A stretch of DNA of 64,000 bases from a virus (IMGVR_UViG_3300031999_000001:136058-200057), one strand, 5' to 3'; counted from the first letter of the stretch, positions 4,597 through 23,197 are shown. Program-made: numbers and translations. Notes: generated from the letters alone by a model not told the origin.

Positions 4597-4884
4597 TTAA
4601 AGTTCCTCAATCCTTTTACTTTTATCGTCAATCAATAAATCATATGCTGGTTTTTGTCTCATAATTACATCATGAAACTTACAACCCCAATCAATTAATT
4701 GTTGTGCGGTTAACTCTGTCCAATTTATGCCAGTATTTTGTCCTCTGGCTGACCAATAAATTATTATATTACCCTCATCGTAAAGTTTATTAATTTTTGC
4801 AATATTCTTTGGAATTGGCTTTGCATTATCGTAACCCCCAACAGTCGTACATATTGTACCGTCTATGTCACAGTATATCAACAT
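4597..4884 (-). CDS. Minimal HAD-family phosphatase (capsule biosynthesis EcbF/BcbF-like)
   Basis: DIDGT motif I, SARG motif II, KP..D..IDDK motifs III/IV. Confidence 0.75.
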   Translation of the reverse strand: MLIYCDIDGTICTTVGGYDNAKPIPKNIAKINKLYDEGNIIIYWSARGQNTGINWTELTAQQLIDWGCKFHDVIMRQKPAYDLLIDDKSKRIEEL

Positions 4885-4896
4885 ATTCTAATTGTT

Positions 4897-5676
4897 TTAC
4901 TTAATTTTTTTTAAATCAACAATAACCACACCTCTTTGAGTTACCACCCAAGAAGCACATTTATTTGCAAATCGTATTGCTTCACAAATATCATTATTTT
5001 CCATGAATTTTGCAACAAGTGCTGCAAGAAAAGTATCACCAGCACCACTTAAATCCCTGACATTATGTTCATTTTCAATTGAAAATTTTTCAATTTTAAT
5101 TTCACCATCATCATTATAATTTAACATTGCACCATCTTTACCTAATGTTATAATAATATCATTTGGAAATTCATATGTTAAATATTCTTTATTTTCATTA
5201 TATTCTTTTTCATTAATTTTTATATATTTGATATTAAATGCCCATTTTCCAATTATTTTTTTTGTATCCATAAATATTAAAGGATGATTTTCTGCAATAT
5301 ATATAATATCATCATGACTTAAAAATCCTTTATTATAATCGGAAATTATAATTGCAACATATTGATTAAAATCAATTCCTTTCAATTCTTTTGCCCTTAA
5401 TGGTTTAATTTTATCATTTTCGTCAACCCTAAGTAACATTTGGTTTGAAACTTCATCAACATATCTCATTTTTACTGGTCTGATATCATTTGTAAAAATA
5501 TCACAATGAACACCTAATGCTTTGAGATTTTCATAAACATTTATTGCCATTCCACCATTACCAGTTGTTCTTAAGGGAAGAAAAATTGGTACGGGTGCTT
5601 CGGGACTTAATTTATCACATATTCCATATCTGAACACATCCTCACAACTATCGCCAATTACTAATACTTTTTTCAT
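4897..5676 (-). CDS. PfkB-family sugar kinase, HldE/RfaE kinase domain-like (heptose-7-phosphate kinase)
   Basis: VLVIGD, LSPEAPVP, ISDYNKG and DLSGAGDTF motifs. Confidence 0.85.
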   Translation of the reverse strand: MKKVLVIGDSCEDVFRYGICDKLSPEAPVPIFLPLRTTGNGGMAINVYENLKALGVHCDIFTNDIRPVKMRYVDEVSNQMLLRVDENDKIKPLRAKELKGIDFNQYVAIIISDYNKGFLSHDDIIYIAENHPLIFMDTKKIIGKWAFNIKYIKINEKEYNENKEYLTYEFPNDIIITLGKDGAMLNYNDDGEIKIEKFSIENEHNVRDLSGAGDTFLAALVAKFMENNDICEAIRFANKCASWVVTQRGVVIVDLKKIK

Positions 5677-7151
5677 TTCTTATTATATTTCTTTAATGCT
5701 ATTAATTGTTTTTTAATGTTTGATATTTCATAATCGGTTTCAAGCATTTTATTTAATGGTTTTTCCATACTAAATTCATTGATTTTTACTGATTTTTTAT
5801 ATACTTTTCTTATTGTTCTTAATAAATCACATTTATGTAAACCTTTAACACCAATTTGTGTAATAACATCAGAATTATCCCAATTTAACATTATTTTTTC
5901 GGCAATTTTACACCAAAACAATGTTGTAATACCATTCCAATAATAATTAACATAACCATTCACTTCTTCTTTTTCATCAACACTTAAAAACCAATCCAAT
6001 AAAGATTTATTTGAATTTAATTCATGCCCAATTATTGATGTTCTAATGATTTTGGTGTTCTTAAAATTATCAACAATTATTTTAGATATCTTAGCTTTAC
6101 TTTTACCATAATCATCATTAGCATCACGTTCATCGGTTTTTTTATATTTTTCTGGATATGGAATGTCTCCAGAAAATTCACAATCTGTTGAAGGATGAAG
6201 AACTTTTTTTCCGATAGATTCTAAAAATATTGGTAAATCAACATTAATTTTATCATAATCTTCTGATTTGTATTTTTTTTGCGGTATTGCACCAATACAA
6301 TTTATAATAAAATCAACATTACAATTAATTATAAAATCTTTAAATTCATTTGAATCCCATCTAAAATCACAGACATATACGATATATCTATTATTAAAAT
6401 ATTTATATACCATATTACCAAGCATTCCATTATGTCCCAATATCAGTAATTTTATACCTTCTTTTAATTTAAGTAATTCACGTTTTATTTTTGACATGTT
6501 TCTTATAATTCCATTCAGATTTTTACTTGTTACTGAATCATTATGTCTTCTTTTATAAGATAGAAATTCTGGTACGCCATCAAATGGTATGTTATAAATT
6601 GTTGATTTTATCATCCAATAATAATCTTCTGAAAATTTTAAATGTTCAGGAAATGGAAAATTTTTATAAACATATTTCGGAATGAAAATACCCGTAAATC
6701 CAATTCGTGATTTACACCAAATCGTTTCCTCAAATTTTTCAGAACTCATTTTTTTTGTTTCTCTCTTTTTTGTAATATTATTATCTTTATCAATTATCCA
6801 TGCATTATTATATAAAACAGATTTTGGAAATTTTTGCGCATATTCTATTTTTATTTTTAATAAATCTTTATCAAAATAATCATCTGCAGGACACCAACAC
6901 CAATAATCTCCATTACTTTCATCAAAACTTTTATTTATGATAACACCAACATTATCTTGTTTATCTAATTTAAAAATTTTAACCCTTTTATCATTTTCAT
7001 ATTCTTTAATTATATTTAATGAATCATCGGTGCTGCCATCATCATAAATGAGATATTCAAAATCCGTATAACTTTGATTTAAAACACTTTCTATTGCTTG
7101 CGCAATATATGAAGCATTGTTGTAATTAGATGTAAAAACCGATATTTTCAT
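5673..7151 (-). CDS. Fusion: GT2 glycosyltransferase + RmlD-like NDP-4-keto-6-deoxysugar reductase
   Basis: N-term YNNASYIAQAIESVLNQSY/DDGSTD/ADD/SEDY; C-term LILGHNGMLG, INCIG, HPSTDCEFSG, YGKSK. Confidence 0.85.
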   Translation of the reverse strand: MKISVFTSNYNNASYIAQAIESVLNQSYTDFEYLIYDDGSTDDSLNIIKEYENDKRVKIFKLDKQDNVGVIINKSFDESNGDYWCWCPADDYFDKDLLKIKIEYAQKFPKSVLYNNAWIIDKDNNITKKRETKKMSSEKFEETIWCKSRIGFTGIFIPKYVYKNFPFPEHLKFSEDYYWMIKSTIYNIPFDGVPEFLSYKRRHNDSVTSKNLNGIIRNMSKIKRELLKLKEGIKLLILGHNGMLGNMVYKYFNNRYIVYVCDFRWDSNEFKDFIINCNVDFIINCIGAIPQKKYKSEDYDKINVDLPIFLESIGKKVLHPSTDCEFSGDIPYPEKYKKTDERDANDDYGKSKAKISKIIVDNFKNTKIIRTSIIGHELNSNKSLLDWFLSVDEKEEVNGYVNYYWNGITTLFWCKIAEKIMLNWDNSDVITQIGVKGLHKCDLLRTIRKVYKKSVKINEFSMEKPLNKMLETDYEISNIKKQLIALKKYNKK

Positions 7152-7153
7152 AT

Positions 7154-7822
7154 TTATTTATTTATTAATTTTAAATTATATTTACTTACATTAAAATCAG
7201 ACCTACTACCTAATAATTTGGTCATATGAATATTATCACCATGTATTGTCAAAAGCACATTTAAATTATCTATTTTTATTCCTTTAATGAAAATTCCAAT
7301 ACTACCATGTGATTTTGAATATGGTATACATTTATATTCATCTTTTTTTTCCATAACTGAAATAAAACCACTTGTACCTGTTGCATTCCATGTTTTTTTT
7401 CCTTTTGTTATTATATTAATCATATCCATTTTTTTTATATCATAATAAAATGGAAATTCTGTTTCAATTATAGATTTATGAAGATTTTCAACAAAATCAT
7501 TACCCAAACAATTATCACTATCAATTCTTGTTGTTAAAACATATTCTTCATCAATAAGTTCCAGTAATTTCGGTAATATTTCTTTAAGAATTTTATTTGC
7601 TCCTGATGATTCAAGCAATAATTGATATTCATTACTAATTTTACCCACAGGTTCATATCCCCATAAAGTAACGAACTTAAAATTTTTATTAGTTTGCACT
7701 TCAATTGATGACCTTAATGTATTATTTAAAATATTAATTCTATTATTAAGCCAGACTTCATCTTTTGATTGTGGAAGCCATTTAATATTAACTCTACTAA
7801 CAATTAAATGTGTAAATTTCAT
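7154..7822 (-). CDS. Putative glycosyltransferase (putative rhamnosyltransferase-like, GT-A)
   Basis: WLNNR..SIEVQTNKNF and TTRIDSDN pattern. Confidence 0.6.
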   Translation of the reverse strand: MKFTHLIVSRVNIKWLPQSKDEVWLNNRINILNNTLRSSIEVQTNKNFKFVTLWGYEPVGKISNEYQLLLESSGANKILKEILPKLLELIDEEYVLTTRIDSDNCLGNDFVENLHKSIIETEFPFYYDIKKMDMINIITKGKKTWNATGTSGFISVMEKKDEYKCIPYSKSHGSIGIFIKGIKIDNLNVLLTIHGDNIHMTKLLGSRSDFNVSKYNLKLINK

Positions 7823-7825
7823 ATT

Positions 7826-8827
7826 TTACTTTATTAAAAAACCACCCTCAAATAATAATTCACGTAAATAATTTTTATCCTTTATATTATCTGCCGATGA
7901 AAATGTTTTAAAATTTACTTTTTTATGATTATTTAAGTACGTATATTCTTTATTTATTTTTATTGATGGTAATATAATATAATAATTTTCATAAAATTTA
8001 TATGAATTCACTGATTCGTGTTCAGATATTAATATTTCATGTACTTTCTCACCCTCTCTAATGCCAATCTCTTCAATTTTTGTATCTGAATTTCCATAAT
8101 ATTCAATCAACACCTTTGCTAAATCACTAATATAAAATGATGGCATATTCATTACAAAAGTTTCACCACCAATGCTATGTTCAGCAGCTTCAAATAATAA
8201 AAAAATTGCTTGAGATAATGTAAGAAAAAATCTGGTCATTGTCTTATCAGTAATTGTTACTTTATTTTGTGTTTTAATTTGATTAATAAAATGTGGAACA
8301 ACACTACCATTTGAACCCAAAACATTACCACCCCTAATACAAACAAAATCAGTATTATTTGTTAAATTATTTGCCTGAATTGTAAGTTTTTCACCAACCG
8401 ATTTTGTCATTCCATATAAATTCGTTGGTGAAACCGCTTTATCTGTTGAAATATCAACAAACTTTTTAACTCCATACTTAATAGCAGAATTAATTAAATT
8501 TATTGTTCCAATAATATTAGTTTTTATTGCTTCTTGTGGTTGATTTTCACAAACAGGAACATGTTTTAATGCTGCGAGATGAAAAACATAATTAATATTT
8601 TTATGATTAAATAATCTATCAACAGCATCCGCATCACGAACATCACCAATAATATATTCAATTTTATTATTATTAAATTTTCTCAGCATGTTTACTTGTG
8701 CAAGTTCACCACGAGAATATATAATTATTTTTTTTGGGTCTTTCTCCAAAAGTTGTAATGTTAATTCATTTCCCCATGAACCCGAACCACCATCAATTAA
8801 AATTATTTTGTTTTCAAACATAATCAT
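7826..8827 (-). CDS. UDP-GlcNAc 4,6-dehydratase/5-epimerase (FnlA/CapE/PseB family)
   Basis: GGSGSWG, GDVRD, FHLAALKHVP, STDKAV.P.NLYGMTK, GNVLGSNGSV, MTRF, GIREGEK. Confidence 0.9.
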   Translation of the reverse strand: MIMFENKIILIDGGSGSWGNELTLQLLEKDPKKIIIYSRGELAQVNMLRKFNNNKIEYIIGDVRDADAVDRLFNHKNINYVFHLAALKHVPVCENQPQEAIKTNIIGTINLINSAIKYGVKKFVDISTDKAVSPTNLYGMTKSVGEKLTIQANNLTNNTDFVCIRGGNVLGSNGSVVPHFINQIKTQNKVTITDKTMTRFFLTLSQAIFLLFEAAEHSIGGETFVMNMPSFYISDLAKVLIEYYGNSDTKIEEIGIREGEKVHEILISEHESVNSYKFYENYYIILPSIKINKEYTYLNNHKKVNFKTFSSADNIKDKNYLRELLFEGGFLIK

Positions 8828-9462
8828 TTATTAATTTTTATCATTCTTATTATTTTAAATGACTCAGCATATTCCAAATTAGATGAAAAACCACGAATAT
8901 TTGAATAACTCATTAATAGTTCTTTTGGTCTAAATTTTCTTACTTGTGATTTATGTAATTTATATGCATTTATTTTATTTTCAATATCAATTTCTTCAAA
9001 ATAATTTGGTTGAAATTCATTTTCACCCCAAAGTAAATATTGTTCAACCTCATAAACAAACACATTTGGTACAAAATAATTTAAATCATGTGGTCTTAAT
9101 GCAACAATACAAGCATCATAAACTTCTTTATGATCTTGATTGTATGAAAAATTTGGAATAAAAATTTCATTTGGTTTTAATTCATTAATAATATCAGTAA
9201 TTTCATTAATTATCATTTCTTTTTTATAATTATTTACTTGATTAGTACCTATTCGATATTCAAAATTTAAAAATTTCGATACTGCATCAACTTCTTTAAT
9301 TCTTTCATCTCTTCTCACAACATGAAATAAATCAATACCTAAATAATAAACAAAAGAACAATTATTATTTTTTCTATTATTTAAAATTCCAGCACAACCC
9401 AATACTTCATCATCACAATGTGGTGATATTATTAATGTTTTATATGTCTTTTTCATATTCAA
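8824..9462 (-). CDS. PIG-L/LmbE-family N-acetyl sugar deacetylase
   Basis: SPHCDDEVLG, NQDH, HKSQ, AESF motifs. Confidence 0.85.
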   Translation of the reverse strand: MNMKKTYKTLIISPHCDDEVLGCAGILNNRKNNNCSFVYYLGIDLFHVVRRDERIKEVDAVSKFLNFEYRIGTNQVNNYKKEMIINEITDIINELKPNEIFIPNFSYNQDHKEVYDACIVALRPHDLNYFVPNVFVYEVEQYLLWGENEFQPNYFEEIDIENKINAYKLHKSQVRKFRPKELLMSYSNIRGFSSNLEYAESFKIIRMIKINK

Positions 9463-10105
9463 TAATTTTTAATATAATTTTTCCAGTTTTACAATTAATA
9501 TAACATTCTGGATATGGTTTTTGTAACGAACGTACTTTATTATAAAAATATTCAGCATCGTTATTTAAAAAATCTTCTGGTTTTATTTCAGAATTATTTG
9601 GCTTTAAACGTTTGTATGTTGTAGCTTCTTCCTTATTTTGTTTTATCCATAATATTGAATCATTCTTATAATTTTCAATAAAATCTTTTGTTCCTATAAT
9701 ACCAAAATTTTCTATTTTTTTTAATATTATATCTAAATATCCGTTTAATTCAAAATCAACCTGATAATATATATCACCATCATCTAATCCCTTTTCCATT
9801 TTAAATATTGTAACTGCTGAAAATTTTTCCCCTGCAATTATTTGATTTTGTATTGGTGTTCCGCCTCTATATTTGGGTAATTTTGATGGATGTAAACATA
9901 AACAAATATAAGAATCAACAATTTTCTGAGACACCATCCAACTCCAACCATAAAAAAATATAACATCTGGATTTATTATATTAATAAAATCAATTGTACA
10001 TAATTTTTTATTTGTAATAAGTATATATTCATCTTCCAATGAAGATATTTCCTTAAAAATATTAATTGCCCAATCTCTATATGCAAAAAATAAAAATCTT
10101 TTCAT
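9440..10105 (-). CDS. Formyltransferase (Fmt-like, probably sugar N-formyltransferase)
   Basis: LHPSKLPKYRGGTP, LDDGDI, VRSLQKPYP. Confidence 0.85.
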   Translation of the reverse strand: MKRFLFFAYRDWAINIFKEISSLEDEYILITNKKLCTIDFINIINPDVIFFYGWSWMVSQKIVDSYICLCLHPSKLPKYRGGTPIQNQIIAGEKFSAVTIFKMEKGLDDGDIYYQVDFELNGYLDIILKKIENFGIIGTKDFIENYKNDSILWIKQNKEEATTYKRLKPNNSEIKPEDFLNNDAEYFYNKVRSLQKPYPECYINCKTGKIILKIIEYEKDI

Positions 10106-10863
10106 ATTTTTTTATGTTTTTCACCTTCCTGAAAATGATACACAATAGAATCATTTGAATTTATATGTTTTACACCAATTGAATTTAGTCTAACAAAAAA
10201 TTCAGTATCACCAGTTCTTGATATTATATTATATTTTCCATTATGTAAATTTCCTTCTGGATAATATCCAACCTTTTCAATAATATCTTTATATAGCATT
10301 ATTGGCATAAAAAGATTTCCAATTGAAATACTATCATTTTTTATTTCATTTACTTTTTTTAGAAACGCTTCTTCGTTAAAATTTTTTATTGTTTGTCCAA
10401 AATCATAATGTTCACAAACAGATAAATTAATTGGATTGGTAAATCTATGATGAGGCTGTATTATTTTTGAGGAAACCACAACTTCACGTGTTAATCTCTT
10501 TTTTAAATTAACTAACCAATCTGGTGAAAATGCATTATCGCTATTAATCAACATTATTATTGGATTATTAGACATTCTAATACCATAATTATATCCAGCA
10601 TATACTCTACTTATATATTCTGGATATGCAAATCCCATATTAAATAATTCTTGTTCTGTACGCTTAATATTATTATTTATAAAATGTGGATAATTTTTTT
10701 CTTTTAGAAGTTTTAATACATCATCAGTTGCATCATTAGCAACAAAATAAAATTCTGCTTCATCGCAATTAAGTTCAGGTGTGTGTTTTATGAGATTATT
10801 ATATACAAACTCGGCATATTCAACAGATTGATATATTAATGATATGATTGATATTTTTTCCAT
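10102..10863 (-). CDS. GT2-like glycosyltransferase
   Basis: INSDN DxD-like motif, VGYY, GD..F, VYHFQEGE. Confidence 0.7.
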   Translation of the reverse strand: MEKISIISLIYQSVEYAEFVYNNLIKHTPELNCDEAEFYFVANDATDDVLKLLKEKNYPHFINNNIKRTEQELFNMGFAYPEYISRVYAGYNYGIRMSNNPIIMLINSDNAFSPDWLVNLKKRLTREVVVSSKIIQPHHRFTNPINLSVCEHYDFGQTIKNFNEEAFLKKVNEIKNDSISIGNLFMPIMLYKDIIEKVGYYPEGNLHNGKYNIISRTGDTEFFVRLNSIGVKHINSNDSIVYHFQEGEKHKKI

Positions 10864-16333: not shown

Positions 16334-17209
16334 TTAGTTAAAATAATTTTTACATAATTTACAAAAAAGATAATTATAATTTAAATAATTATTATGATTT
16401 AATAAATTATTAAATTTTTGCGCCACACCGCCACCAGCATACCAATGATATCCAATTGCATTTTCAGGAAAATCAGTAATATTTATTGCACAATTCTGAT
16501 GAAAACAATCACCAATATTTTTATTATTATAATGATATACTACATCCATTGGTAAATTAAAAAATTTTAAATGTGGATATTTTTCAATTGCAAACGGTAA
16601 AATTTTTTGCCCATAACAACCATATGATTTATATAAATCATATACATTTAAAACACCATATGCTTGATATGCATAATGTTTTTCAAATTTAAATGTATTA
16701 TAAAAAATATCTTTAAAAAAATCGTTTTCGGATGTAGATGCCATTAAGCCAATTGATATATATTTGGTTTGACAAATAACAACATTAATATTTTCTTTAT
16801 TCCATTGATTATATAATTCATCTATTGGTTTAAAAAATAAAATATCCATATCTGAATATATTCCCCCATTTTTATACAACTGATACCATTTAAATAAATT
16901 ACTTTTTCCAGATGGTGTAATGTTTTTAAATCTATTAAGTTCAACTTCTTCAGTATTCCATTTTATTATATTAATATTTAATTCTTTTATTTTTGAAAAA
17001 TAATCTAAACCTTCATAAAACCAAAAATCCTGTCTACGTCCTGCTTTAATAAAATCAGGAGTTAATTCAGGAGTTAAAACAGTTTTTTCATTACAATATA
17101 AATCCATTTGCCAATCTGGATTCATTTTTCTAAATGAAAATAAGGTCATATATCTCATCCAAGACAATTTATCATTTTCCCAATAAAAAAATATTCGTTT
17201 GGGTATCAT
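16334..17209 (-). CDS. GT32-like glycosyltransferase (paralog of 12962..13822)
   Basis: IPKRIFFYW, GGIYSDMD, YHWYAG. Confidence 0.8.
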   Translation of the reverse strand: MIPKRIFFYWENDKLSWMRYMTLFSFRKMNPDWQMDLYCNEKTVLTPELTPDFIKAGRRQDFWFYEGLDYFSKIKELNINIIKWNTEEVELNRFKNITPSGKSNLFKWYQLYKNGGIYSDMDILFFKPIDELYNQWNKENINVVICQTKYISIGLMASTSENDFFKDIFYNTFKFEKHYAYQAYGVLNVYDLYKSYGCYGQKILPFAIEKYPHLKFFNLPMDVVYHYNNKNIGDCFHQNCAINITDFPENAIGYHWYAGGGVAQKFNNLLNHNNYLNYNYLFCKLCKNYFN

Positions 17210-17784
17210 AGTTTATTTATTTTTCTTGCTAAATACCAATTCCATTTTTTATTTATTTTCATAATTTCAAAACCAACATTTTCTAAAAGCAATAATGATG
17301 TTTTTGTTAATTCAATCCAATCAGGATTTTTTCTATCATGAAAACTAATTGTTATTTGATCAATATTTTTAAAATCTTTTATATCCAAACTATGTAATAA
17401 CGGATATTCAGCACCCTCAATATTAATTTTTAATATTGAAATCTGATTAATATTATATAATTTACAAAAATTTTTCCAAGAAAGTACAGGAAATTCGATA
17501 CCGTCTTTATTATTAAGAAAAACCGATGAAGAAAATCCAATATCTTTTATAAGTGTTTTACCATCAAATGCACCAATCAATCCCTTAAATAATTCAACAC
17601 CAATAATTTCATTTTCAAATGGGTCAACACCAATAATTCTTTTTTTTCCAATAAAAAAAGAAGACCAATCCCAATTTAAGCATCCAATATCAATAACACA
17701 TCCATTGTGTTCAAAAACTCTTGAATCAATTGTTGAATAATCACGTCCCTTTATGGTTTGAATTAAAGTGTTTTTATTTTCCAT
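17206..17784 (-). CDS. FkbM-like methyltransferase
   Basis: VIDIGC, LKINIEGAEY, QITISFH. Confidence 0.75.
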   Translation of the reverse strand: MENKNTLIQTIKGRDYSTIDSRVFEHNGCVIDIGCLNWDWSSFFIGKKRIIGVDPFENEIIGVELFKGLIGAFDGKTLIKDIGFSSSVFLNNKDGIEFPVLSWKNFCKLYNINQISILKINIEGAEYPLLHSLDIKDFKNIDQITISFHDRKNPDWIELTKTSLLLLENVGFEIMKINKKWNWYLARKINKL

Positions 17785-17802
17785 TATTTATAAAATAATT
17801 TT

Positions 17803-18387
17803 TTATATAGTTTTTATTTTTTTTAGAATTAACAAAACGCCCTTCCATCCATTATCTATATTAAATTCTTTATTAATTAAGAAATATTTTAAAATAGCTT
17901 CTTTTATTGGAATAATATTTTCGGTATCAAACACTTCATATTTTCCTGCACGCTGTATTGCTAATTCCAGAAAAAAAACACCATTGGGTTTTAATATTCG
18001 ATTAGTCTCTTTTAAAAAAACATCTAAGTACAATACATGATCAATGGCATTGCAAAAAGCAAAATCAAATATATAATCAGGAAATTTTAATTGATGGAAA
18101 TCACCATATAAAACATGTTCATTTTTTTCCCCCGGTTCAATATCAATACCAATGGCAAGTGCATTTAATTTTTTAAATGCACGAACCTCCCCACCCAATC
18201 TGGCAGCAAGACAAATTATACTTTTTTCTTTAAAATCAAACAAATTTTTATATCTATCTAACACAATTTGTTCATAACGTTTATCATTTCTTATAATTTC
18301 CTTCAAATGAGTATGTAATTTATCTGATTGATGTTCTATATAACTCTCATAATTTAAATATTCTCTCTTTTTTATATTGTCTGTCAT
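17803..18387 (-). CDS. SAM methyltransferase (Methyltransf_11-like)
   Basis: CLAARLGGE, GIDI, GDFH..F.D..FD, RILKPNG. Confidence 0.8.
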   Translation of the reverse strand: MTDNIKKREYLNYESYIEHQSDKLHTHLKEIIRNDKRYEQIVLDRYKNLFDFKEKSIICLAARLGGEVRAFKKLNALAIGIDIEPGEKNEHVLYGDFHQLKFPDYIFDFAFCNAIDHVLYLDVFLKETNRILKPNGVFFLELAIQRAGKYEVFDTENIIPIKEAILKYFLINKEFNIDNGWKGVLLILKKIKTI

Positions 18388-18426
18388 TAATATTATTTTA
18401 AAACACCTTTTATTTTATAATTTTAA

Positions 18427-18981
18427 CTAAAATTTAAAAACATATATTATTCGTCTGCGATTTGTATGATTAACTAAAAGAATTTTTTTTGGCATTATAT
18501 TGTTAGTCCACTTTCTTATTATTTCATCATCAATATTATGATGATTCAAATCATTTGGTGAATTCCATTTATATGGAAACGATAAAATTGCATTTTTACT
18601 TATTCTCATAATTTCATTAAAGACTTTACTTTGTTTTTTATTTTCAAAATGTTCAAATACCTGCAATGCCACAAAAACATCATAATATTTATCAGATATG
18701 TTCCAAGGTAAAGATGTAGCATCTTGAATATAATTTTTATTTTTTAAATTTTTGGTGTCAATATATTCTAATTGTAAATCCATATTATCACTAATATTTG
18801 TTAAATTAATTTTATATGCTCCAAGTTCAAGAATTGTTTGGGGATTAAGTTTTCTAATTTCGTTAATTACAGGATACATATATTTCCATCGACCCGACCA
18901 TGAATTATTCCAATAATCATCATTTAATAGATTCATTTTATTTATTAACGATGTTCTACATAAATATTTAATATTCAACAT
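18427..18981 (-). CDS. SAM methyltransferase-like protein
   Basis: ILELGA, DAT.LPW, VALQVFEH. Confidence 0.7.
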   Translation of the reverse strand: MLNIKYLCRTSLINKMNLLNDDYWNNSWSGRWKYMYPVINEIRKLNPQTILELGAYKINLTNISDNMDLQLEYIDTKNLKNKNYIQDATSLPWNISDKYYDVFVALQVFEHFENKKQSKVFNEIMRISKNAILSFPYKWNSPNDLNHHNIDDEIIRKWTNNIMPKKILLVNHTNRRRIIYVFKF

Positions 18982-19895
18982 ATGTATTTACTATTTTATT
19001 TATTTTAATGCTTTGATTATTACCAATTAATTTCTTATATTCTTTTCTTATTTCAGAATTTGCCCCAAATAAAATATTTTGAGTTAAACTATCTTGATGC
19101 ATTCGTCTGTAAAATAATGGTTTGTTTATTAATTTTTCCTTTATTATAGATAAACCCCTTTTTAATAATTCGGTGTCTGCAGCACACATCCAAGATTCAT
19201 ATCCACCCAATTTATTATATAATGATAATTTAAATAATCCAACACCATGTGGATATCTGATAAAATTTATGTTTTTTTGAATAACATTTTTAATTAGTAT
19301 TAAATATTTAAATCTAATAATATTATAATTATCAACAAAATACATTATTTCATTAATCATTTCTGGTTTCATAATATCATCACCATCAAAACGAATAATA
19401 TTCTCATTTTTTATAATATCCAATAACGTGTTTGATGTAATATATGTGCCCATGTTATTATCCATCATAAATATCCTAAGATTTCTATATTTATGTTTGA
19501 TTTCAAGCAATTTATTTAATGTGTCCTGACAAGCATCGACACCCACCAATACCTCAAAATTATTATTATTAATAAAATATGTCTGATTTTCAATTGAATT
19601 TAAAGTTTCTTCAATATACTTTTGTGTTTGATATGCTGATATTATTATTGATATTGGTTTTTTATTTTCTAAAATTGGAAGACATCCGTTGTCCATAATA
19701 CCTAATCTTCGTTCATTACGACCAAACAAATTAAGATTAATTTGTTTTTTATTCTCATCACCATGAATTCTTAACTTATCTCTTTCATTCATTAATTTAA
19801 TTATTTTATTTTTTTTTTTCAATAAAAACAAGTTGCCGATGTCTTAATTCGATTCTTTTTTTTACTTCATTAATGCTTATTTTTTGTTTTTTCAT
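18968..19895 (-). CDS. GT2 glycosyltransferase, 5' end interrupted by an A11 tract
   Basis: GT2 motifs (ISIIISAY, RFDGDD, LGGY..AD). An ATG-initiated 29-codon ORF (19806..19895) would fuse in frame if the tract were A10. Confidence 0.7.
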
Positions 19896-19903
19896 TCTAA
19901 AAA

Positions 19904-20611
19904 TCAATATTTCATAACATTATAATTAATGTTTTGTCGTGAACTAAAATATTTGGGGTATTTTTTTAATTGTAAATTCAAATTTAATTCAGGAAATGCA
20001 TCAATATGCACAACACGATAATTTTCAATTTTTTTTAATAAATATCCATTTTCTCTTATTCTTTTATTTAATTCAAAATCCCAAAAAATTTTTGTATTGG
20101 GTTCGGTAATCCAGAAATTAATTTTATCAACAATGCTTCTTCTATGCATATTTACACAAGTTGCTTTATCAACATCACCAAAAACAATTCCATTATATTC
20201 TTGTTTATTACGAATTTCCAATACATTCCAAACACCATTCCTTTTTAACATTAATTGACCAATTTGTGGAAAATTATCCATTATTTCAACCATTTTTTTT
20301 AAAAAATGCGGTGTTATTGGTGGACAATCATTATCCCATTGCATTGTATATTCACAATCTTCATCGAGATTTTCATAACCGAGCTTAGTACCACCAAAAT
20401 CACCAAGATTTTCATTAGAATATATTGGTTTGATTTTATAATAGCTTTCTTTTACTAAAGATTTTATCCATTGTCCAGTACCATCTGTTGATGCTTGATC
20501 AATTACCATCATTTTATAATTATCATATCCAGCCAAACGATCAATTTCACGAATTGTTAATGTTGTATATTCAAGACGATTAAATGCCCTAATTATTATA
20601 TTAACTTTCAT
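19904..20611 (-). CDS. GT2 glycosyltransferase
   Basis: IIIRAFNR, IDQASTDGT, WDND. Confidence 0.8.
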   Translation of the reverse strand: MKVNIIIRAFNRLEYTTLTIREIDRLAGYDNYKMMVIDQASTDGTGQWIKSLVKESYYKIKPIYSNENLGDFGGTKLGYENLDEDCEYTMQWDNDCPPITPHFLKKMVEIMDNFPQIGQLMLKRNGVWNVLEIRNKQEYNGIVFGDVDKATCVNMHRRSIVDKINFWITEPNTKIFWDFELNKRIRENGYLLKKIENYRVVHIDAFPELNLNLQLKKYPKYFSSRQNINYNVMKY

Positions 20612-20623
20612 TTTCTTTTTATA

Positions 20624-21310
20624 TTAAAAATTATTCACCAAACCTTGATTATAATCAACATATCCACCACCAACATCACTATATCCTGCTTTTGGTTTCA
20701 CTAATGTTGGTAAAAAAACATATGCTTTATATATATTATGACTTTGTAATAATGGCTGTAATATATCTGCTGGCTCTTTCCATATTTTTAATCTTTCTAA
20801 AAAATCAACAAAAATATTACTATTATAACCCAAAGCATATGCACATTGTGTCCATTTGGTTTTAATTAATTCATAATCAAAAGTATTGTAATTTTGTTTT
20901 GTTATTTTAATTGTTTTGTCTCCCGTTATCATTTCAAAACTACCCCAATCAAATTGGTTATTTCCACCCAAATACAATAAATTCCAATTATCGGGTAAAT
21001 ATTCAATTTTTTTCCAAAATCTTTCATTTATATTATCATTTAAATGAACATCATCCTCAAAAATCAATATACTTTTATATTTTTTTAATATTGCATCTTC
21101 GAAAATTTTAATATTTGTTAATAAATTACCATATGCACCAGCATGTCGATTTAAACCGGGTTGAAAAATATCTTTTCCGTTAATTGCTTCAAATCTTTCA
21201 ACCGTTAAAAAATGTTTTAGAAATTCTTTGCTCATTTCTTCCCATCTATCAGTTCTGTGTGTTAGATTCAAACAATAAATATGATCAAAAAAATTATTAA
21301 GTGTTTTCAT
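20624..21310 (-). CDS. GT25 (LPS-biosynthesis type) glycosyltransferase
   Basis: YCLNL..RTDRW, ERFEAING, ILIFEDD, LLYLGG. Confidence 0.85.
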   Translation of the reverse strand: MKTLNNFFDHIYCLNLTHRTDRWEEMSKEFLKHFLTVERFEAINGKDIFQPGLNRHAGAYGNLLTNIKIFEDAILKKYKSILIFEDDVHLNDNINERFWKKIEYLPDNWNLLYLGGNNQFDWGSFEMITGDKTIKITKQNYNTFDYELIKTKWTQCAYALGYNSNIFVDFLERLKIWKEPADILQPLLQSHNIYKAYVFLPTLVKPKAGYSDVGGGYVDYNQGLVNNF

Positions 21311-21322
21311 ATTTATATATAG

Positions 21323-21961
21323 CTACAAATTATGTTTTTTTCTAATTGCCATTATTGCATCTATTTCACTGTTTGTATTAGAAGTGATGCCTTCGTCTAT
21401 ATAATATGCAAAAAACTCATTATTTTGCACCGCAACTCCCTTATCACCATTTTTTAGCATAGTTAGCCAAAGGTCATAATCTTGAAGCCGTTTTAAATTT
21501 TCATCAAATCTTGGAAATTTTTCTCTGCGAATTAATGACATTGTTGAAATATAATTTGTTACTTTTAGTCTTTCGACATTAAATGGTATTGTTGGTATTA
21601 TAAAATTTTGTTTCAGTGGATGATTAACACTATCAACAACAATTCCAATATACCCGCTATAAGCATATGCTGCATTTAAATTTTTATTTAATGCATCCAA
21701 TAATTTTTCAAGATAATTTTTTGGTAAAAGTATATCATTATCACAAAAAAATACAAATTGTTGTGTTGATCTATCAAAACCATTATTTCTTTTTTTTGGT
21801 GCACCACCTAAATCATCATTAATAATTATTTCAATTGGCTGATTTGCCTCAATTAAAGGAAATACATAATTTTCAAAAAAATCTTTTCTCAACTTATCTC
21901 TTGTTGTTGGAATTATTACAGATATTGGTAATCCATCATTATATTTTATAATATCAATCAT
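21323..21961 (-). CDS. GT2 glycosyltransferase
   Basis: ISVIIP, KRNNG, FCDND, FDENLKRLQDYDLWL. Confidence 0.85.
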   Translation of the reverse strand: MIDIIKYNDGLPISVIIPTTRDKLRKDFFENYVFPLIEANQPIEIIINDDLGGAPKKRNNGFDRSTQQFVFFCDNDILLPKNYLEKLLDALNKNLNAAYAYSGYIGIVVDSVNHPLKQNFIIPTIPFNVERLKVTNYISTMSLIRREKFPRFDENLKRLQDYDLWLTMLKNGDKGVAVQNNEFFAYYIDEGITSNTNSEIDAIMAIRKKHNL

Positions 21962-22502
21962 TTTTCCACATTTTATTTCTAATTATTCTTGAAATGCTTA
22001 TTTCAGACACACCATATTTTCTCGCAAGAAATTGATAACCATCTTTTTTCAATATGTTGTTAAATTTAAACATACGAATTTCTTGTACTTGAATATTATT
22101 TAATTTAGCATTTATATTATTTTCACCACACATATTTAGACCATTTAAATGCCCCTCGACTTTTCTGGCAAGATTATAAATTTTATTGCTGAAATATTTA
22201 AAATAATAATCCAAATATTGTTGTTCAACATCATGTAATTGATTTTTATCAAAAATTTGAACAATTATTGAAAACATAAAATTCTGCGAACCATATTTAT
22301 TCCAAGCATGCTGTAAATAAATATTATAATGCTTATTATTATTTAATAAATGTATATGATGACTCCAACGATTTTTATAATCATAAGCACTGCCAATATA
22401 AAACTTACCATCTACCAAATTTAATATTTGATATATTGAACGTGGACTTGCTTCAAAATAATCAGGAAAATCATTTTTTATTCTAATTGCATTAGATTTC
22501 AT
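21954..22502 (-). mobile_element. Free-standing GIY-YIG homing endonuclease with C-terminal HTH
   Basis: SIYQI.N...FYIGSA...RW..H, EQ..LD, YN; C-term GENNINAKL...LARKYGVS..SISRI. Confidence 0.85.
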
Positions 22503-23197
22503 TCTTCATACGTAATTGGCAATTCATCTTTATATTTTTCAACAAATTGTTGTCTGTTTTTTTCCCATTCTTCATTTGTTGCACCCACAGATTCATGTAG
22601 TATTCTTATATCTGTTATAACACCAATATTACAACCCTCAAGGTAATTATTAAAAACCATCGGAATTTCATAAAAATGAAACCCTTTAAATTCTTCATCA
22701 AACTTATGCTCAATATTATTACAATCAACAGCCATAAATAATCCATCAATTAATATTACTGGTTTAATATATCCTTTTCTTGGTGGTGCATATTCACTTA
22801 CCCATGTTGAAATGCCATTGGTGTGCTCTACGACTCCATACATTTTAGTTCTGTCAGTCCACCAGCAACCATTATCGGCAAGATATGTTGTACCAGCTAC
22901 GCCAATTATTGAAAAATTCGAATAATTGAATTTATTAAGCAATATTTTACCCCAATTAGATGTTTTTATGGTTATGTCTGGATGAGAAAACACCATAATT
23001 ACATTATCTCCGTTATGTTCAGCAATTGCTCTATTATAAACTTCAGAAAGTGAATATTGGTTATAATTAACATAACACACAACATCATAATTTACGCCAA
23101 TTGTTTTATGAATATGATTAATAAATTCATTATTTTTTTCATCACCTAAATGTGAAGAAAATACAACAACTATTTTATTTTTTAAATTTTTTTTCAT
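22499..23197 (-). CDS. GT2-like glycosyltransferase (Glyco_tranf_2_5-like)
   Basis: LSEVYN, FSHPD, IIGVAG, IDGLFMA, FDEEFKGFHFY, ILHES.G. Confidence 0.8.
   Translation of the reverse strand: MKKNLKNKIVVVFSSHLGDEKNNEFINHIHKTIGVNYDVVCYVNYNQYSLSEVYNRAIAEHNGDNVIMVFSHPDITIKTSNWGKILLNKFNYSNFSIIGVAGTTYLADNGCWWTDRTKMYGVVEHTNGISTWVSEYAPPRKGYIKPVILIDGLFMAVDCNNIEHKFDEEFKGFHFYEIPMVFNNYLEGCNIGVITDIRILHESVGATNEEWEKNRQQFVEKYKDELPITYEE

What the first reader, a model, noticed from the sequence alone, without database searches (positions are those of the whole stretch)
4597..23197. Phage-encoded autonomous glycan-building island downstream of the baseplate operon (candidate virion glycosylation system)
Seen: about 25 contiguous co-oriented genes comprising 12 glycosyltransferases (GT2, GT4-like, GT25, GT32), 6 SAM methyltransferases often alternating with GTs, nucleotide-sugar enzymes, a heptose kinase and a phosphatase. 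Two more GTs (32753-34806) sit inside the structural module. I recognise no flippase, polymerase, ligase, initiating phosphoglycosyl transferase or multi-TM protein, so this is not an O-antigen/capsule export locus. Known: giant viruses (Mimiviridae, chloroviruses) and some mycobacteriophages glycosylate virion proteins with their own GTs. Inference: the phage builds a complex, O-methylated cytoplasmic glycan on its virion (or DNA), at a scale that seems unusual for a bacteriophage.
Basis: partly seen in the sequence, partly recalled or inferred. Interest (0 to 1): 0.85.

Follow-up and report, generated by a model that had tools for sequence, protein, structure and literature searches.

The report
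Hypervariable glycan island of jumbo phages
An uncultured giant bacteriophage carries about 25 soluble sugar-building enzyme genes directly behind its baseplate genes, at a spot where each of 17 related phages holds a different set, so these phages probably make strain-specific sugar chains, most plausibly on their own particles, although the target is unproven.

Summary
Window 4597-23197 (minus strand) holds 25 tightly packed genes. Ten are firm glycosyltransferases and one is borderline. Four are firm SAM methyltransferases and one is weak. There is also a UDP-GlcNAc to L-6-deoxy-HexNAc enzyme trio, a de-N-acetylase, a formyltransferase, a PfkB sugar kinase, a mini-HAD and a GIY-YIG homing endonuclease. 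None has a transmembrane segment.

The contig is a partial (61%) T4-like jumbo phage from sediment. At least 156 IMG/VR contigs are relatives; complete genomes are 320-365 kb. In all 17 large relatives examined, the same locus holds a 6-24 kb insert made of different glycan genes. The locus lies between a baseplate-wedge-like gene and a conserved 211-aa gene. The insert always runs in the same direction as the baseplate genes and nearly always starts with the same glycosyltransferase. Two further glycosyltransferases 9 kb away are conserved in 17/17.

No lipid-carrier transferase, flippase, polymerase or ABC exporter was found in any genome searched.

Best reading (about 0.5): cytoplasmic assembly of a strain-specific, methylated glycan on a conserved phage acceptor, probably virion proteins. 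Remodelling of host LPS or surface glycan remains a serious rival; DNA glycosylation is unlikely. The gene count is not unprecedented (cyanophage P-SSM2 has 24 such genes). This scan has noted similar phage islands on other DNA.

The parts
30653..31570 (-). Baseplate hub gene (305 aa). Upstream structural context.
   Evidence: PHROG 150 'baseplate hub' E 1.7e-7. Pfam T4_baseplate PF12322, 29.0 bits against a 24.5 cut-off.
24174..27497 (-). 1107-aa conserved upstream flank gene of unknown family, presumed structural.
   Evidence: Present in 17/17 relatives at 32-60% identity, always on the island's strand. No Pfam or PHROG hit.
23845..24159 (-). 104-aa baseplate-wedge-like protein. This is the conserved gene immediately before the island.
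   Evidence: PHROG 7145 'baseplate wedge subunit' E 1.1e-4. Present in 17/17 relatives at 45-83% identity.
23198..23844 (-). Spacer with four ORFs under 60 aa, one of them a 31-aa hydrophobic peptide. Function unknown.
   Evidence: Read directly from the sequence.
22499..23197 (-). Head glycosyltransferase (232 aa, Glyco_tranf_2_5). First gene of the island and clade-conserved. Candidate for the first, conserved transfer step.
   Evidence: PF13712 E 1.5e-24. Present in 16/17 relatives. In 8 relatives it is the N-terminal domain of a 443-704 aa protein; a second GT2 or GT4 domain was detected in 7 of them.
21954..22502 (-). GIY-YIG homing endonuclease (182 aa).
   Evidence: PF01541, 27 bits. 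A 70%-identical homologue sits at the same place in G001.
21323..21961 (-). GT2 glycosyltransferase (212 aa).
   Evidence: PF00535 E 9.7e-12. Found in 8/17 relatives.
20624..21310 (-). GT25 glycosyltransferase (228 aa).
   Evidence: PF01755 E 1e-11. No homologue in the 17 relatives' islands.
19904..20611 (-). GT2 glycosyltransferase (235 aa).
   Evidence: PF00535 E 2.8e-11.
18968..19831 (-). GT2 glycosyltransferase (287 aa).
   Evidence: PF00535 E 3e-12.
18427..18981 (-). SAM methyltransferase (184 aa).
   Evidence: Methyltransf_11, 24.4 bits against a 21.2 cut-off.
17803..18387 (-). SAM methyltransferase (194 aa).
   Evidence: Methyltransf_11 E 5.3e-9.
17206..17784 (-). FkbM-family methyltransferase (192 aa).
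   Evidence: Methyltransf_21 E 9.5e-9.
16334..17209 (-). GT32-type glycosyltransferase (291 aa).
   Evidence: Gly_transf_sug E 2.3e-9. Paralogue of 12962-13822, 28% identity, E 7e-20.
15534..16322 (-). GT2 glycosyltransferase (262 aa).
   Evidence: PF00535 E 2.3e-16, plus Glyco_transf_7C.
14467..15534 (-). WecB-family UDP-HexNAc 2-epimerase (355 aa).
   Evidence: PF02350 E 1.8e-91. TIGR00236 wecB 268 bits against a 210 cut-off.
13824..14477 (-). 217-aa protein, unassigned.
   Evidence: No hit in Pfam, NCBIfam, PHROG or PDB. No homologue in relatives.
12962..13822 (-). GT32-type glycosyltransferase (286 aa).
   Evidence: Gly_transf_sug E 5.5e-8.
12383..12922 (-). SAM methyltransferase (179 aa, TylF/MycF-like family).
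   Evidence: Methyltransf_24 E 1.4e-11.
11553..12386 (-). 277-aa protein, unassigned.
   Evidence: Only sub-threshold hits. A 76%-identical homologue lies in G005's island.
10868..11551 (-). Possible methyltransferase (227 aa). Weak assignment.
   Evidence: Methyltransf_24, 20.9 bits against a 26.3 cut-off.
10102..10863 (-). GT2-like protein (253 aa). Borderline assignment.
   Evidence: PF00535, 23.2 bits against a 23.3 cut-off.
9440..10105 (-). Formyltransferase (221 aa). Inferred to N-formylate a sugar amine.
   Evidence: Formyl_trans_N E 2.1e-14. Resembles Fmt and the ArnA N-domain, below cut-offs.
8824..9462 (-). PIG-L/LmbE-family de-N-acetylase (212 aa).
   Evidence: PF02585 E 2.6e-10.
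7826..8827 (-). UDP-GlcNAc 4,6-dehydratase/5-epimerase of the PseB/FnlA/CapE type (333 aa).
   Evidence: Polysacc_synt_2 E 2.5e-98. PseB model 313 bits and FnlA model 241 bits, both below equivalog cut-offs. PDB 6bwc, FlaA1, CapE and 4j2o at E 1e-65 to 3e-69.
7154..7822 (-). Putative rhamnosyltransferase-family GT (222 aa).
   Evidence: PF11316, 28.2 bits against a 23 cut-off.
5673..7151 (-). Fusion of a GT2 domain (residues 4-147) with an RmlD-like 4-reductase (residues 234-377).
   Evidence: PF00535 E 1.5e-25 and PF04321 E 1.2e-10. Elsewhere, RmlD-like homologues are fused to the dehydratase, the 2-epimerase or GT25 (P0016, P0020, P0083, P0077).
4897..5676 (-). PfkB-family sugar kinase (259 aa), closest to HldE domain I.
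   Evidence: PF00294 E 1.2e-19. TIGR02198 119 bits against a 345 cut-off.
4597..4884 (-). 95-aa mini-HAD-like putative phosphatase. Weak assignment.
   Evidence: HAD_PNKP, 18.2 bits against a 27.6 cut-off, with a DxDGT motif at the N-terminus. 95-aa homologues occur in 4 relatives.
4280..4576 (-). 98-aa ORF, unassigned.
   Evidence: No family hit. No homologue in relatives.
3658..4293 (-). 211-aa conserved gene that closes the island. Fold unknown.
   Evidence: Present in 16/17 relatives. AF2 pLDDT 89.9, but no PDB match by Foldseek or VIA (Z at most 6.8).
2618..3343 (-). 241-aa conserved downstream flank gene.
   Evidence: Present in 17/17 relatives.
32753..33961 (+). Clade-core GT-B (GT4-like) glycosyltransferase (402 aa).
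   Evidence: Present in 17/17 relatives at 41-80% identity. AF2 model pLDDT 83.8. Top PDB match 8xsg, E 6e-13, TM 0.64/0.74. Nearest Atlas clusters are viral.
33994..34806 (+). Clade-core GT-A (GT2-like) glycosyltransferase (270 aa).
   Evidence: Present in 17/17 relatives, always next to the GT-B gene. Orthologues reach up to 36.7 bits on PF00535. EFDDE motif invariant.

Best explanation
The stretch is a hypervariable glycan-assembly island of an uncultured T4-like jumbo phage.

Shown:
- About 25 soluble enzymes are encoded head to tail directly after a baseplate-wedge-like gene.
- The locus is fixed across the clade, but its content differs in every relative.
- It starts with a clade-conserved glycosyltransferase, which in many relatives is fused to a variable second GT.
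- The phage genomes searched contain no lipid-carrier or export parts.

Inferred mechanism:
1. Late in infection the phage makes its own donors. From UDP-GlcNAc, the PseB/FnlA-like dehydratase, the RmlD-like reductase and the WecB-like 2-epimerase give a UDP-2-acetamido-2,6-dideoxy-L-hexose (L-RhaNAc, L-QuiNAc or L-FucNAc type).
2. The deacetylase and the formyltransferase convert an N-acetyl group to an N-formyl group.
3. The kinase and HAD feed or modify a phosphosugar.
4. The conserved head GT, possibly with the two core GTs at 32753-34806, puts the first sugars on an acceptor that is conserved across the clade.
5. The nine or ten variable GT-A enzymes extend the chain and the four or five methyltransferases O-methylate it.

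The whole process takes place in the cytoplasm. I take the acceptor to be one or more exposed virion proteins (tail fibres, sheath decoration or capsid). Each phage strain would then carry its own glycan 'serotype', as Megavirinae fibrils and glycosylated mycobacteriophage capsids and tails do.
For: Gene content.

No membrane or export parts:
- No transmembrane segment in the island.
- No multi-pass protein on the coding strand of 17 relatives' islands.
- No Bac_transf, Glycos_transf_4, Wzx or Wzy in the own contig or 4 complete relatives, with positive controls ringing.
- No ABC2 exporter in any of the 18 genomes.

Fixed locus, variable content:
- 6.1-24.2 kb between the same two flanks in 17/17 relatives, always on the strand of the 1107-aa flank gene, which lies between the baseplate hub and wedge-like genes.
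- The relatives' 263 island ORFs are again GT2 (42), Glyco_tranf_2_5 (16), methyltransferases and varied NDP-sugar enzymes.

Conserved first step:
- The head GT is present in 16/17 relatives. In 8 it is the N-terminal domain of a larger protein; 7 of these carry a detected C-terminal GT2 or GT4 domain.
- A core GT-B plus GT-A pair is present in 17/17.
- The GT-B fold is closest to AmGGT. That enzyme is over 50% identical to ApAgt, which extends protein-linked glucose in the cytoplasm (PMC12159676).
- The GT-B family's nearest Atlas clusters are viral.

Structural context: baseplate hub and wedge-like genes lie immediately upstream, and no terminator-like site occurs on the coding strand of the island.

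Pathway linkage: Rosetta-stone fusions join reductase, dehydratase and epimerase.

Precedents: Megavirinae clusters of 6-33 genes are clade-specific and include the homologous Mg534-536 L-RhaNAc/QuiNAc enzymes and methyltransferases (PMC10117803). Mycobacteriophage capsid and tail glycosylation is cited in PMC12619734.

No tyrosine integrase was found, so classical lysogenic seroconversion is unlikely.
Against: - There is no direct evidence for any acceptor.
- None of the known protein-priming GT families I thought of (NGT/HMW1C, BAHT, GtfA/SdgB-type, Maf, FlmG-like TPR-GT) appeared in the Pfam or NCBIfam hits. I ran no search aimed at them.
- GT2, GT25 and GT32 enzymes and a heptose-type kinase are equally typical of LPS/LOS core synthesis. 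That pathway needs no dedicated exporter beyond host MsbA.
- Similar cyanophage clusters have been read as LPS genes.
- The virion proteins show no extreme Ser/Thr tracts. The maximum is 56% S+T in 25 residues, and it occurs in tail-fibre-like proteins where such composition is common.
- Expression timing is unknown. The T4 late-promoter motif is not enriched.
- The host is unknown.
Confidence: 0.5

Rival explanations
1. Host envelope remodelling. The soluble phage GTs and MTs act at the inner face of the host membrane on host lipid-linked intermediates (lipid A-core, or Und-PP-linked O-antigen or capsule units). Host MsbA, Wzx or ABC transporters then export the altered glycan. This would change the infected cell's surface, for example to block superinfection or to stop progeny adsorbing to debris.
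For: - GT25, GT2 and GT32 families and an HldE-domain-I-like kinase are typical LPS/LOS genes.
- LPS-core assembly needs only peripheral GTs plus host MsbA (established knowledge). The absence of membrane genes therefore does not exclude this reading.
- P-SSM2's 24 comparable genes were interpreted this way (PMC1079782).
- Hypervariability resembles that of bacterial O-antigen/LOS loci.
Against: - None of the 18 islands carries an initiating transferase, flippase, polymerase, ligase or ABC exporter. Wzx and Wzy are normally specific for their own unit.
- The head GT and the core GT pair are conserved across a clade whose other island genes are shuffled, which points to a phage-constant acceptor.
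- The GT-B's nearest Atlas clusters are viral, and the sampled distant relatives of the head GT come from unnamed metagenome contigs.
- No tyrosine integrase was found.
- The island sits inside a block co-oriented with the baseplate genes.
Confidence: 0.28
2. Another cytoplasmic acceptor. The enzymes could build a free or protein-bound intracellular glycan that is not part of the virion. Examples are a polymethylated storage- or decoy-type polysaccharide, glycosylation of host proteins for takeover or anti-defence, or a secreted glycoconjugate released at lysis.
For: - All enzymes are soluble.
- The core GT-B's fold neighbours include the mycobacterial methylmannose-polysaccharide mannosyltransferase and small-molecule GTs such as BshA.
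- There are many methyltransferases.
Against: - No precedent in phages is known to me.
- Placement in the structural block, and strain-level hypervariability, are easier to explain for a surface-exposed product.
Confidence: 0.12
3. DNA hypermodification. Some or all of the GTs glycosylate hydroxylated pyrimidines in phage DNA to evade restriction, as in T4, RB69 and the metagenomic GT clusters of Pyle et al.
For: - Phage DNA can carry mono- to tri-saccharides, including HexNAc and heptose, and such clusters can lie near structural genes (abstract of 10.1101/2023.12.21.572611; PMC13326640).
- A long thymidylate-synthase homologue exists in 12/18 genomes of the clade.
- A Mom-like DNA-modification gene lies in the window.
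Against: - No thymidylate-synthase homologue was found in the own contig or in complete relatives G003, G010, G011 and G012, which still carry 11-24 kb islands.
- No C5-methyltransferase was found in the own contig, G001, G010 or G004.
- No Tet/JBP hit was found, although the control was silent.
- Eleven GTs, five MTs and a rare-sugar pathway far exceed any known DNA glycan.
- The DNA assembles at even depth from ordinary libraries. This is weak evidence.
Confidence: 0.06
4. Artefact. The island is bacterial DNA joined to a phage contig by misassembly or contamination.
For: - The gene content looks bacterial.
- Related contigs have been binned into bacterial MAGs.
Against: - The same locus is occupied by glycan genes in 17/17 related phage genomes, six of them with direct terminal repeats.
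- Island G+C (23-27%) matches this low-G+C phage (28%).
- Contigs from the likely source run tile the island and both junctions at an even depth of about 24.
- Two other sediment runs hold it with 0-2 differences per contig.
Confidence: 0.01

Closest known systems
Megavirinae (Mimivirus, Moumouvirus, Megavirus) fibril glycosylation gene clusters (PMC10117803)
   Same: Both are virus-encoded clusters that combine nucleotide-sugar pathways, several GTs and sugar methyltransferases. Both have no membrane machinery. Content is lineage-specific at a comparable size (6-33 genes). The same three-enzyme type (4,6-dehydratase/5-epimerase, reductase, 2-epimerase; Mg534-536) makes L-RhaNAc/QuiNAc.
   Different: Those are eukaryotic giant viruses, with chemically proven glycans on fibrils. 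Here the virus is a tailed phage, the acceptor is unknown, and variation is at strain level at one fixed locus flanked by baseplate genes.
Mycobacteriophage virion glycosylation (Che8, Corndog, Myrna; Freeman et al. 2023, as cited in PMC12619734)
   Same: Phage-encoded soluble GTs are thought or shown to decorate the phage's own capsid and tail proteins in the cytoplasm.
   Different: Mycobacteriophages have, to my knowledge, only 2-4 GTs and no nucleotide-sugar pathway. Their acceptors are C-terminal tails of capsid and tail-tube subunits. No such acceptor was identified here.
'LPS' gene clusters of T4-like cyanophage P-SSM2 (PMC1079782)
   Same: [quoted passage not shown]
   Different: The P-SSM2 genes lie in two clusters and were interpreted as host-surface modifiers. 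Their function was never tested. I did not examine their membrane content or locus conservation.
Bacterial UDP-L-QuiNAc / UDP-L-FucNAc pathways (WbvB-WbvR-WbvD; FnlA-FnlB-FnlC/CapE-F-G) within O-antigen loci
   Same: The same enzyme families occur: PseB/FnlA/CapE-like dehydratase (PDB CapE, 4j2o and FlaA1, E 1e-65 to 4e-68), RmlD-like reductase and WecB-like 2-epimerase. The locus is hypervariable and bracketed by conserved genes.
   Different: The phage encodes no Und-P transferase, Wzx, Wzy, WaaL or ABC exporter. The reductase is fused to a GT2. The models score below the equivalog cut-offs, so the exact sugar is not assigned.
Actinobacillus NGT/Agt cytoplasmic protein N-glycosylation; AmGGT structure 8xsg (PMC12159676)
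   Same: The clade-core 402-aa GT-B is structurally closest to AmGGT. AmGGT belongs to the Agt family, which extends a protein-linked glucose in the cytoplasm.
   Different: Sequence identity is only 17%. No NGT/HMW1C-type priming enzyme was found. AmGGT itself prefers free oligosaccharides. GT4 folds are generic.
Phage DNA-glycosylation gene clusters (Pyle et al., 10.1101/2023.12.21.572611; RB69/DLP3 arabinosylation, PMC13326640)
   Same: Phage GTs related to LPS enzymes, sometimes near structural genes. Heptose and HexNAc are used.
   Different: Those clusters depend on a thymidylate-synthase homologue, or on a C5-MT plus TET-like enzyme, and add one to three sugars. Here those partners are missing from several genomes, and the enzyme set is much larger.

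Membership tests
Bacterial O-antigen/capsule export locus (Wzx/Wzy- or ABC-dependent) | Initiating polyprenyl-phosphate sugar transferase (Bac_transf PF02397 or Glycos_transf_4 PF00953) | tested here: not met
   No match in the own contig or in 4 complete relatives. Controls rang in 10 and 12 of 14 genomes.
Bacterial O-antigen/capsule export locus (Wzx/Wzy- or ABC-dependent) | Flippase (Wzx), polymerase/ligase (Wzy_C) or ABC-2 permease (Wzm) | tested here: not met
   PF01943 and PF04932 are absent from 5 genomes. PF01061 is absent from all 18. No multi-pass ORF was found in any island.
UDP-2-acetamido-2,6-dideoxy-L-hexose pathway (WbvB/R/D, FnlA/B/C type) | UDP-GlcNAc 4,6-dehydratase/5-epimerase | tested here: met
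   7826-8827: Polysacc_synt_2 E 2.5e-98; PseB model 313 bits and FnlA model 241 bits, both below equivalog cut-offs; PDB CapE, FlaA1 and 4j2o.
UDP-2-acetamido-2,6-dideoxy-L-hexose pathway (WbvB/R/D, FnlA/B/C type) | C-4 reductase of the RmlD/WbvR type | tested here: met
   The C-terminal half of 5673-7151 matches RmlD_sub_bind at E 1.2e-10. Homologues elsewhere are fused to the dehydratase or the 2-epimerase. This is a family-level assignment only.
UDP-2-acetamido-2,6-dideoxy-L-hexose pathway (WbvB/R/D, FnlA/B/C type) | WecB-family 2-epimerase | tested here: met
   14467-15534 scores 268 bits on TIGR00236 against a 210 cut-off.
UDP-2-acetamido-2,6-dideoxy-L-hexose pathway (WbvB/R/D, FnlA/B/C type) | Identity of the product sugar (L-RhaNAc, L-QuiNAc, L-FucNAc or L-PneNAc) | not testable with these tools
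   Requires an enzyme assay with NMR or LC-MS.
ADP/GDP-heptose pathway (GmhA, HldE/HddA, GmhB, nucleotidyltransferase) with heptosyltransferase | Heptose-7-phosphate kinase | tested here: inconclusive
   4897-5676 scores 119 bits on TIGR02198 against a 345 cut-off. It is a PfkB-family member; its specificity is open.
ADP/GDP-heptose pathway (GmhA, HldE/HddA, GmhB, nucleotidyltransferase) with heptosyltransferase | Nucleotidyltransferase and GT9 heptosyltransferase | tested here: not met
   No CTP_transf_like hit among the window's island ORFs, though 5 occur in relatives. GT9 is absent from the own contig. It passes the cut-off only in G004. GmhA was not searched.
Phage virion self-glycosylation system (mycobacteriophage / Megavirinae type) | Virus-encoded soluble GTs clustered in or next to the virion structural genes | tested here: met
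   The island directly follows baseplate hub and wedge-like genes on the same strand in 18/18 genomes. A core GT pair is present in 17/17 relatives.
Phage virion self-glycosylation system (mycobacteriophage / Megavirinae type) | Glycan covalently bound to virion proteins | not testable with these tools
   Needs glycoproteomics of particles or reconstitution.
Phage virion self-glycosylation system (mycobacteriophage / Megavirinae type) | Recognisable acceptor tract (Ser/Thr-rich tail or repeat) on a virion protein | tested here: inconclusive
   No pure Ser/Thr tract was found. Tail-fibre-like proteins at genome 97-121 kb have 21-26% S+T and a 3- to 6-fold excess of [ST]-G-x-[ST] over shuffles. 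This may be fibre architecture.
Phage DNA glycosylation cluster | Enzyme making a hydroxylated pyrimidine (thymidylate-synthase homologue, or C5-MT plus TET/JBP) | tested here: not met
   PF00303 is absent from the own contig (61% complete) and from complete relatives G003, G010, G011 and G012. PF00145 is absent from the own contig, G001, G010 and G004. PF12851 gave no hit, but its control was silent.
'Moraphage' lineage (PMC12619734) | Heat-shock (DnaK/HSP70) genes present in all members; genomes of 200-307 kb | tested here: not met
   No HSP70 in the own contig or in 4 complete relatives. Complete genomes here are 320-365 kb.

The most novel reading that the evidence does not exclude
A widespread clade of sediment and freshwater jumbo phages carries a serotype-like locus. 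A conserved priming GT and two core GTs start a glycan on exposed virion proteins. A shuffled cassette of up to about 25 enzymes then finishes it into a strain-specific, bacterial-type, O-methylated and N-formylated heteroglycan. Homing endonucleases may help spread the cassettes. This would be a phage counterpart of bacterial O-antigen diversity and of giant-virus fibril glycans.
Probability: 0.4. Interest if true: 0.8.

Novelty: new variant of a known kind. Interest (0 to 1): 0.6.

Why it matters
If these phages coat themselves with strain-specific glycans, then virion glycosylation is not a curiosity of a few mycobacteriophages and giant viruses. It would be a diversifying trait of abundant environmental phages. 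That bears on adsorption, on particle stability, on recognition by grazers or host decoys, and on how 'auxiliary metabolic' GT genes in viromes are interpreted.

The fixed, bracketed locus, with over 150 natural variants, is a ready-made comparative system. Covariation of cassette type with structural genes or with hosts can test the acceptor question without culturing the phage.

The island is also a compact source of soluble enzymes for rare sugars (L-6-deoxy-HexNAc, N-formyl and O-methyl sugars).

Tried and rejected
1. Megablast of the island and tblastn of the 1107-aa flank against 50,697 phage records found no match. No isolated relative exists in that collection.
2. A pattern search with the GT2::RmlD fusion in viral contigs found nothing.
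3. The T4 late promoter TATAAATA occurs 26 times against 26.4 expected. Sigma-70 and terminator scans are at or below shuffle level in this AT-rich DNA. Timing could not be inferred.
4. The 'moraphage' identity is rejected: no HSP70 and larger genomes.
5. The 211-aa island-end protein has a confident model but no fold match. The Atlas gave no usable hit.
6. Proteins 11553-12386 and 13824-14477 have no Pfam, NCBIfam, PHROG or PDB assignment.
7. NCBIfam gave no equivalog for any GT, so no linkage or donor can be assigned.
8. Host inference failed. Clade contigs sit in MAGs labelled Paceibacterota, Bacteroidales and Terriglobales. This is inconsistent and probably reflects mis-binning.
9. No RNA holder is listed among the public runs.
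The mixed alignment A6 was too divergent for a genome scan. Cluster look-up gave only unnamed metagenome sources, one from a Tara viral-size fraction.
11. Freeman et al. 2023 is not held in the library.
12. Misassembly is rejected.

Full report
WHAT IS THERE

The window is the last 64 kb of a single 200,057-bp IMG/VR viral contig. The contig has 28% G+C and a CheckV completeness of 61%. It is a tailed phage. The evidence is a tail sheath (41214-43940, PHROG 23, E 1.6e-64), a T4-type major capsid protein (61079-62752, PHROG 138, E 8e-66), a baseplate hub (30653-31570; PHROG 150 and Pfam T4_baseplate) and a helicase.

ORF calling shows 25 co-oriented minus-strand genes from 23197 down to 4597. 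Twelve junctions overlap by 1-23 bp, and no gap exceeds 72 bp.

Pfam and NCBIfam assign the following:
- ten firm glycosyltransferases (GT2 x5, one of them fused to an RmlD-like reductase; GT32-type x2; GT25; Rhamno_transf; Glyco_tranf_2_5)
- one borderline GT2
- four firm SAM methyltransferases and one weak one
- a PseB/FnlA/CapE-type UDP-GlcNAc 4,6-dehydratase
- a WecB-family 2-epimerase (above the equivalog cut-off)
- a PIG-L de-N-acetylase
- a formyltransferase
- a PfkB kinase nearest HldE domain I (119 bits against a 345 cut-off)
- a 95-aa HAD-like protein
- a GIY-YIG homing endonuclease

Two proteins (277 and 217 aa) remain unassigned. None of the 26 ORFs has a hydrophobic 19-residue window (Kyte-Doolittle mean above 1.6). 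By the same measure, 33 of 216 ORFs genome-wide do.

The two GTs said to lie 'in the structural module' are real. An AlphaFold2 model of 32753-33961 was built on 18 orthologues (pLDDT 83.8, pTM 0.82). It is a GT-B/GT4 fold. Its best PDB match is 8xsg (E 6e-13, TM 0.64/0.74), followed by BshA, GtfA, SdgB, PimA and PglA. 33994-34806 is GT-A-like: its orthologues pass the GT2 cut-off, and an EFDDE (DXD-like) motif is invariant.

IT IS NOT AN ASSEMBLY ARTEFACT, AND IT IS NOT ALONE

The capsid protein finds 156 IMG/VR contigs; the best 80 are 74-89% identical. Several are complete genomes of 320-365 kb with direct terminal repeats. I examined 17 large relatives.

In all 17, homologues of the 1107-aa gene (24174-27497) and the 241-aa gene (2618-3343) bracket an insert of 6.1 to 24.2 kb. 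Ours is 20.8 kb, the second largest. In 17/17 the insert's genes lie on the strand of the 1107-aa gene.

The ends are conserved:
- the 104-aa gene before the island is in 17/17 (PHROG 'baseplate wedge subunit', E 1e-4)
- the head GT (22499-23197) is in 16/17
- the 211-aa gene that closes the island (3658-4293) is in 16/17

The interior is a mosaic.
- G005 shares the kinase, the GT2::reductase fusion, the dehydratase, the borderline GT2-like gene (10102-10863), the 277-aa protein, a methyltransferase and the epimerase, at 60-81% identity. It also has weaker matches to further GT2 genes. It lacks the deacetylase, the formyltransferase, both GT32 genes and the three-methyltransferase block.
- G001, whose capsid is the closest, shares only the two ends of the island.
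- Nine genes in the window have no homologue in any of the 17 islands.

The 263 island ORFs of the relatives are again glycan genes:
- 42 GT2
- 16 Glyco_tranf_2_5
- 13 Methyltransf_24
- 10 Methyltransf_11
- 10 Epimerase_2
- 8 Polysacc_synt_2
- 8 DegT aminotransferases
- 12 RmlD-like
- 6 PfkB
- 5 cytidylyltransferase-like
- GNAT and hexapeptide acyltransferases
- GDP-mannose dehydratases
- LAGLIDADG and HNH endonucleases

No coding-strand ORF in any island has more than one hydrophobic window.

Island G+C (23-27%) is that of the phage. Unitig contigs of the likely source run tile the island and both junctions at an even depth of about 24. Two other sediment-metagenome runs hold it with 0-2 differences per contig.

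NO EXPORT ROUTE OF ITS OWN

Bac_transf, Glycos_transf_4, Wzx and Wzy/ligase families are absent from the own contig and from four complete relatives. They ring in most control genomes. The ABC-2 permease family is absent from all 18 genomes. GT9 heptosyltransferase passes its cut-off only in G004. No tyrosine integrase was found.

WHAT THE ENZYMES IMPLY (INFERENCE)

The dehydratase, the RmlD-like reductase and the WecB-like epimerase are the enzyme types of the WbvB/WbvR/WbvD and FnlA/B/C routes. Those routes run from UDP-GlcNAc to UDP-L-RhaNAc, L-QuiNAc or L-FucNAc. The same types occur as Mg534-536 in Megavirus (PMC10117803).

Their functional linkage is supported by natural fusions among homologues: reductase plus dehydratase (P0016), GT2 plus reductase plus dehydratase (P0020), and reductase plus epimerase (P0083). 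No aminotransferase is present here, which argues against a pseudaminic-acid route.

The adjacent de-N-acetylase and formyltransferase suggest exchange of N-acetyl for N-formyl. The kinase and mini-HAD pair has no nucleotidyltransferase or GT9 partner in this window, so 'heptose kinase' is not established. No GT could be assigned a donor or linkage.

WHICH ACCEPTOR?

The strongest structural clue is the pattern of conservation. The head GT is constant. In eight relatives it is the N-terminal domain of a 443-704 aa protein, and in seven of those a C-terminal GT2 or GT4 domain was detected. The GT-B/GT-A pair is core to the clade. A constant first enzyme followed by variable later ones implies an acceptor that is constant across phages whose glycans differ.

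The GT-B family is abundant: at least 825 clusters. Its nearest Atlas clusters are viral. Its best structural neighbour, AmGGT, is over 50% identical to ApAgt, which extends protein-linked glucose in the cytoplasm (PMC12159676). At 17% identity this is only suggestive.

Three things make virion proteins the most economical acceptor. The island is placed right after the baseplate genes. Proven precedents exist in Megavirinae and mycobacteriophages. And the phage has no export parts of its own. I give this reading about 0.5.

The main rival (about 0.28) is remodelling of host LPS core or other lipid-linked glycans, using host MsbA or host exporters. GT25, GT2, GT32 and HldE-like genes fit that reading equally well, and P-SSM2's 24 genes were read that way (PMC1079782).

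DNA glycosylation (about 0.06) is weak. Thymidylate-synthase homologues are missing from the own contig and from complete G003, G010, G011 and G012. C5-methyltransferases are missing from G001, G010 and G004. G010 nevertheless has the largest island.

Candidate acceptors remain speculative. Tail-fibre-like proteins at genome 97-121 kb are 21-26% Ser+Thr. They show a 3- to 6-fold excess of [ST]-G-x-[ST] over composition-matched shuffles. This may simply be fibre architecture.

COMPARISON AND NOVELTY

Phage- and virus-encoded glycan clusters are known. This scan's own notebook holds several hundred notes on phage GT/MT islands, including look-alikes of this L-HexNAc trio on other DNA. New here is a bracketed, O-antigen-like hypervariable locus in a large clade of uncultured jumbo phages. 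It has a conserved priming end and homing endonucleases inside, and the genomes searched lack membrane machinery. I did not find this clade or locus described in the searchable literature. It is not the 'moraphage' lineage. I class it as a new variant of a known kind, interest 0.6. The function is unproven.

LIMITS
- The host is unknown.
- No expression data are available.
- The contig is incomplete.

Noticed in passing
window 21954-22502: A GIY-YIG homing endonuclease sits between the conserved head GT and the next GT2. In 8 relatives the head GT is the N-terminal part of a larger ORF, and 7 of these carry a detected second GT domain. The relatives' islands also contain LAGLIDADG, HNH and another GIY-YIG gene. 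Homing endonucleases may drive cassette exchange at this locus.
   Followed up: partly
window 23198-23844 (minus strand): The only sizeable 'gap' before the island holds four ORFs under 60 aa. One is a 31-aa hydrophobic peptide. Another is a 54-aa Cys-rich peptide with a duplicated xPYDLN motif.
   Followed up: no
genome 97-121 kb (L116, L117; outside the window): A cluster of large tail-fibre-like proteins has 21-26% Ser+Thr and a 3- to 6-fold excess of the motif [ST]-G-x-[ST] over shuffled controls. The 642-aa member matches annotated tail fibres of Methylophilales and Synechococcus phages.
   Followed up: partly
L118-L120; P0126, P0216: Contigs of this phage clade, including a complete 362,763-bp genome, are deposited inside bacterial MAGs labelled Candidatus Paceibacterota, Bacteroidales, Terriglobales and Dojkabacteria. 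The inconsistent labels suggest mis-binning rather than a host signal.
   Followed up: partly
window 59259-61049: A Mom-like DNA-modification domain is fused to a GIY-YIG endonuclease directly after the capsid gene (PHROG 1384, E 3e-25; PHROG 7168, E 1e-20).
   Followed up: no
G001:162605-163660 and equivalents in 12 of 18 genomes: An unusually long (278-388 aa) thymidylate-synthase-family gene lies near the capsid gene in most relatives and inside the island in G014. It is absent from the own contig. It could be an ordinary ThyA or a pyrimidine hydroxylase/hydroxymethylase.
   Followed up: partly
window 3658-4293: The conserved 211-aa protein closing the island gives a confident AlphaFold2 model (pLDDT 90) with no convincing match in the PDB. 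It may be an undescribed fold or an accessory factor of the island.
   Followed up: partly
G016 (IMG/VR record of L032): One relative is classed 'provirus' by IMG/VR although no integrase was found. The bacterial-looking glycan island may have misled the provirus boundary call.
   Followed up: no
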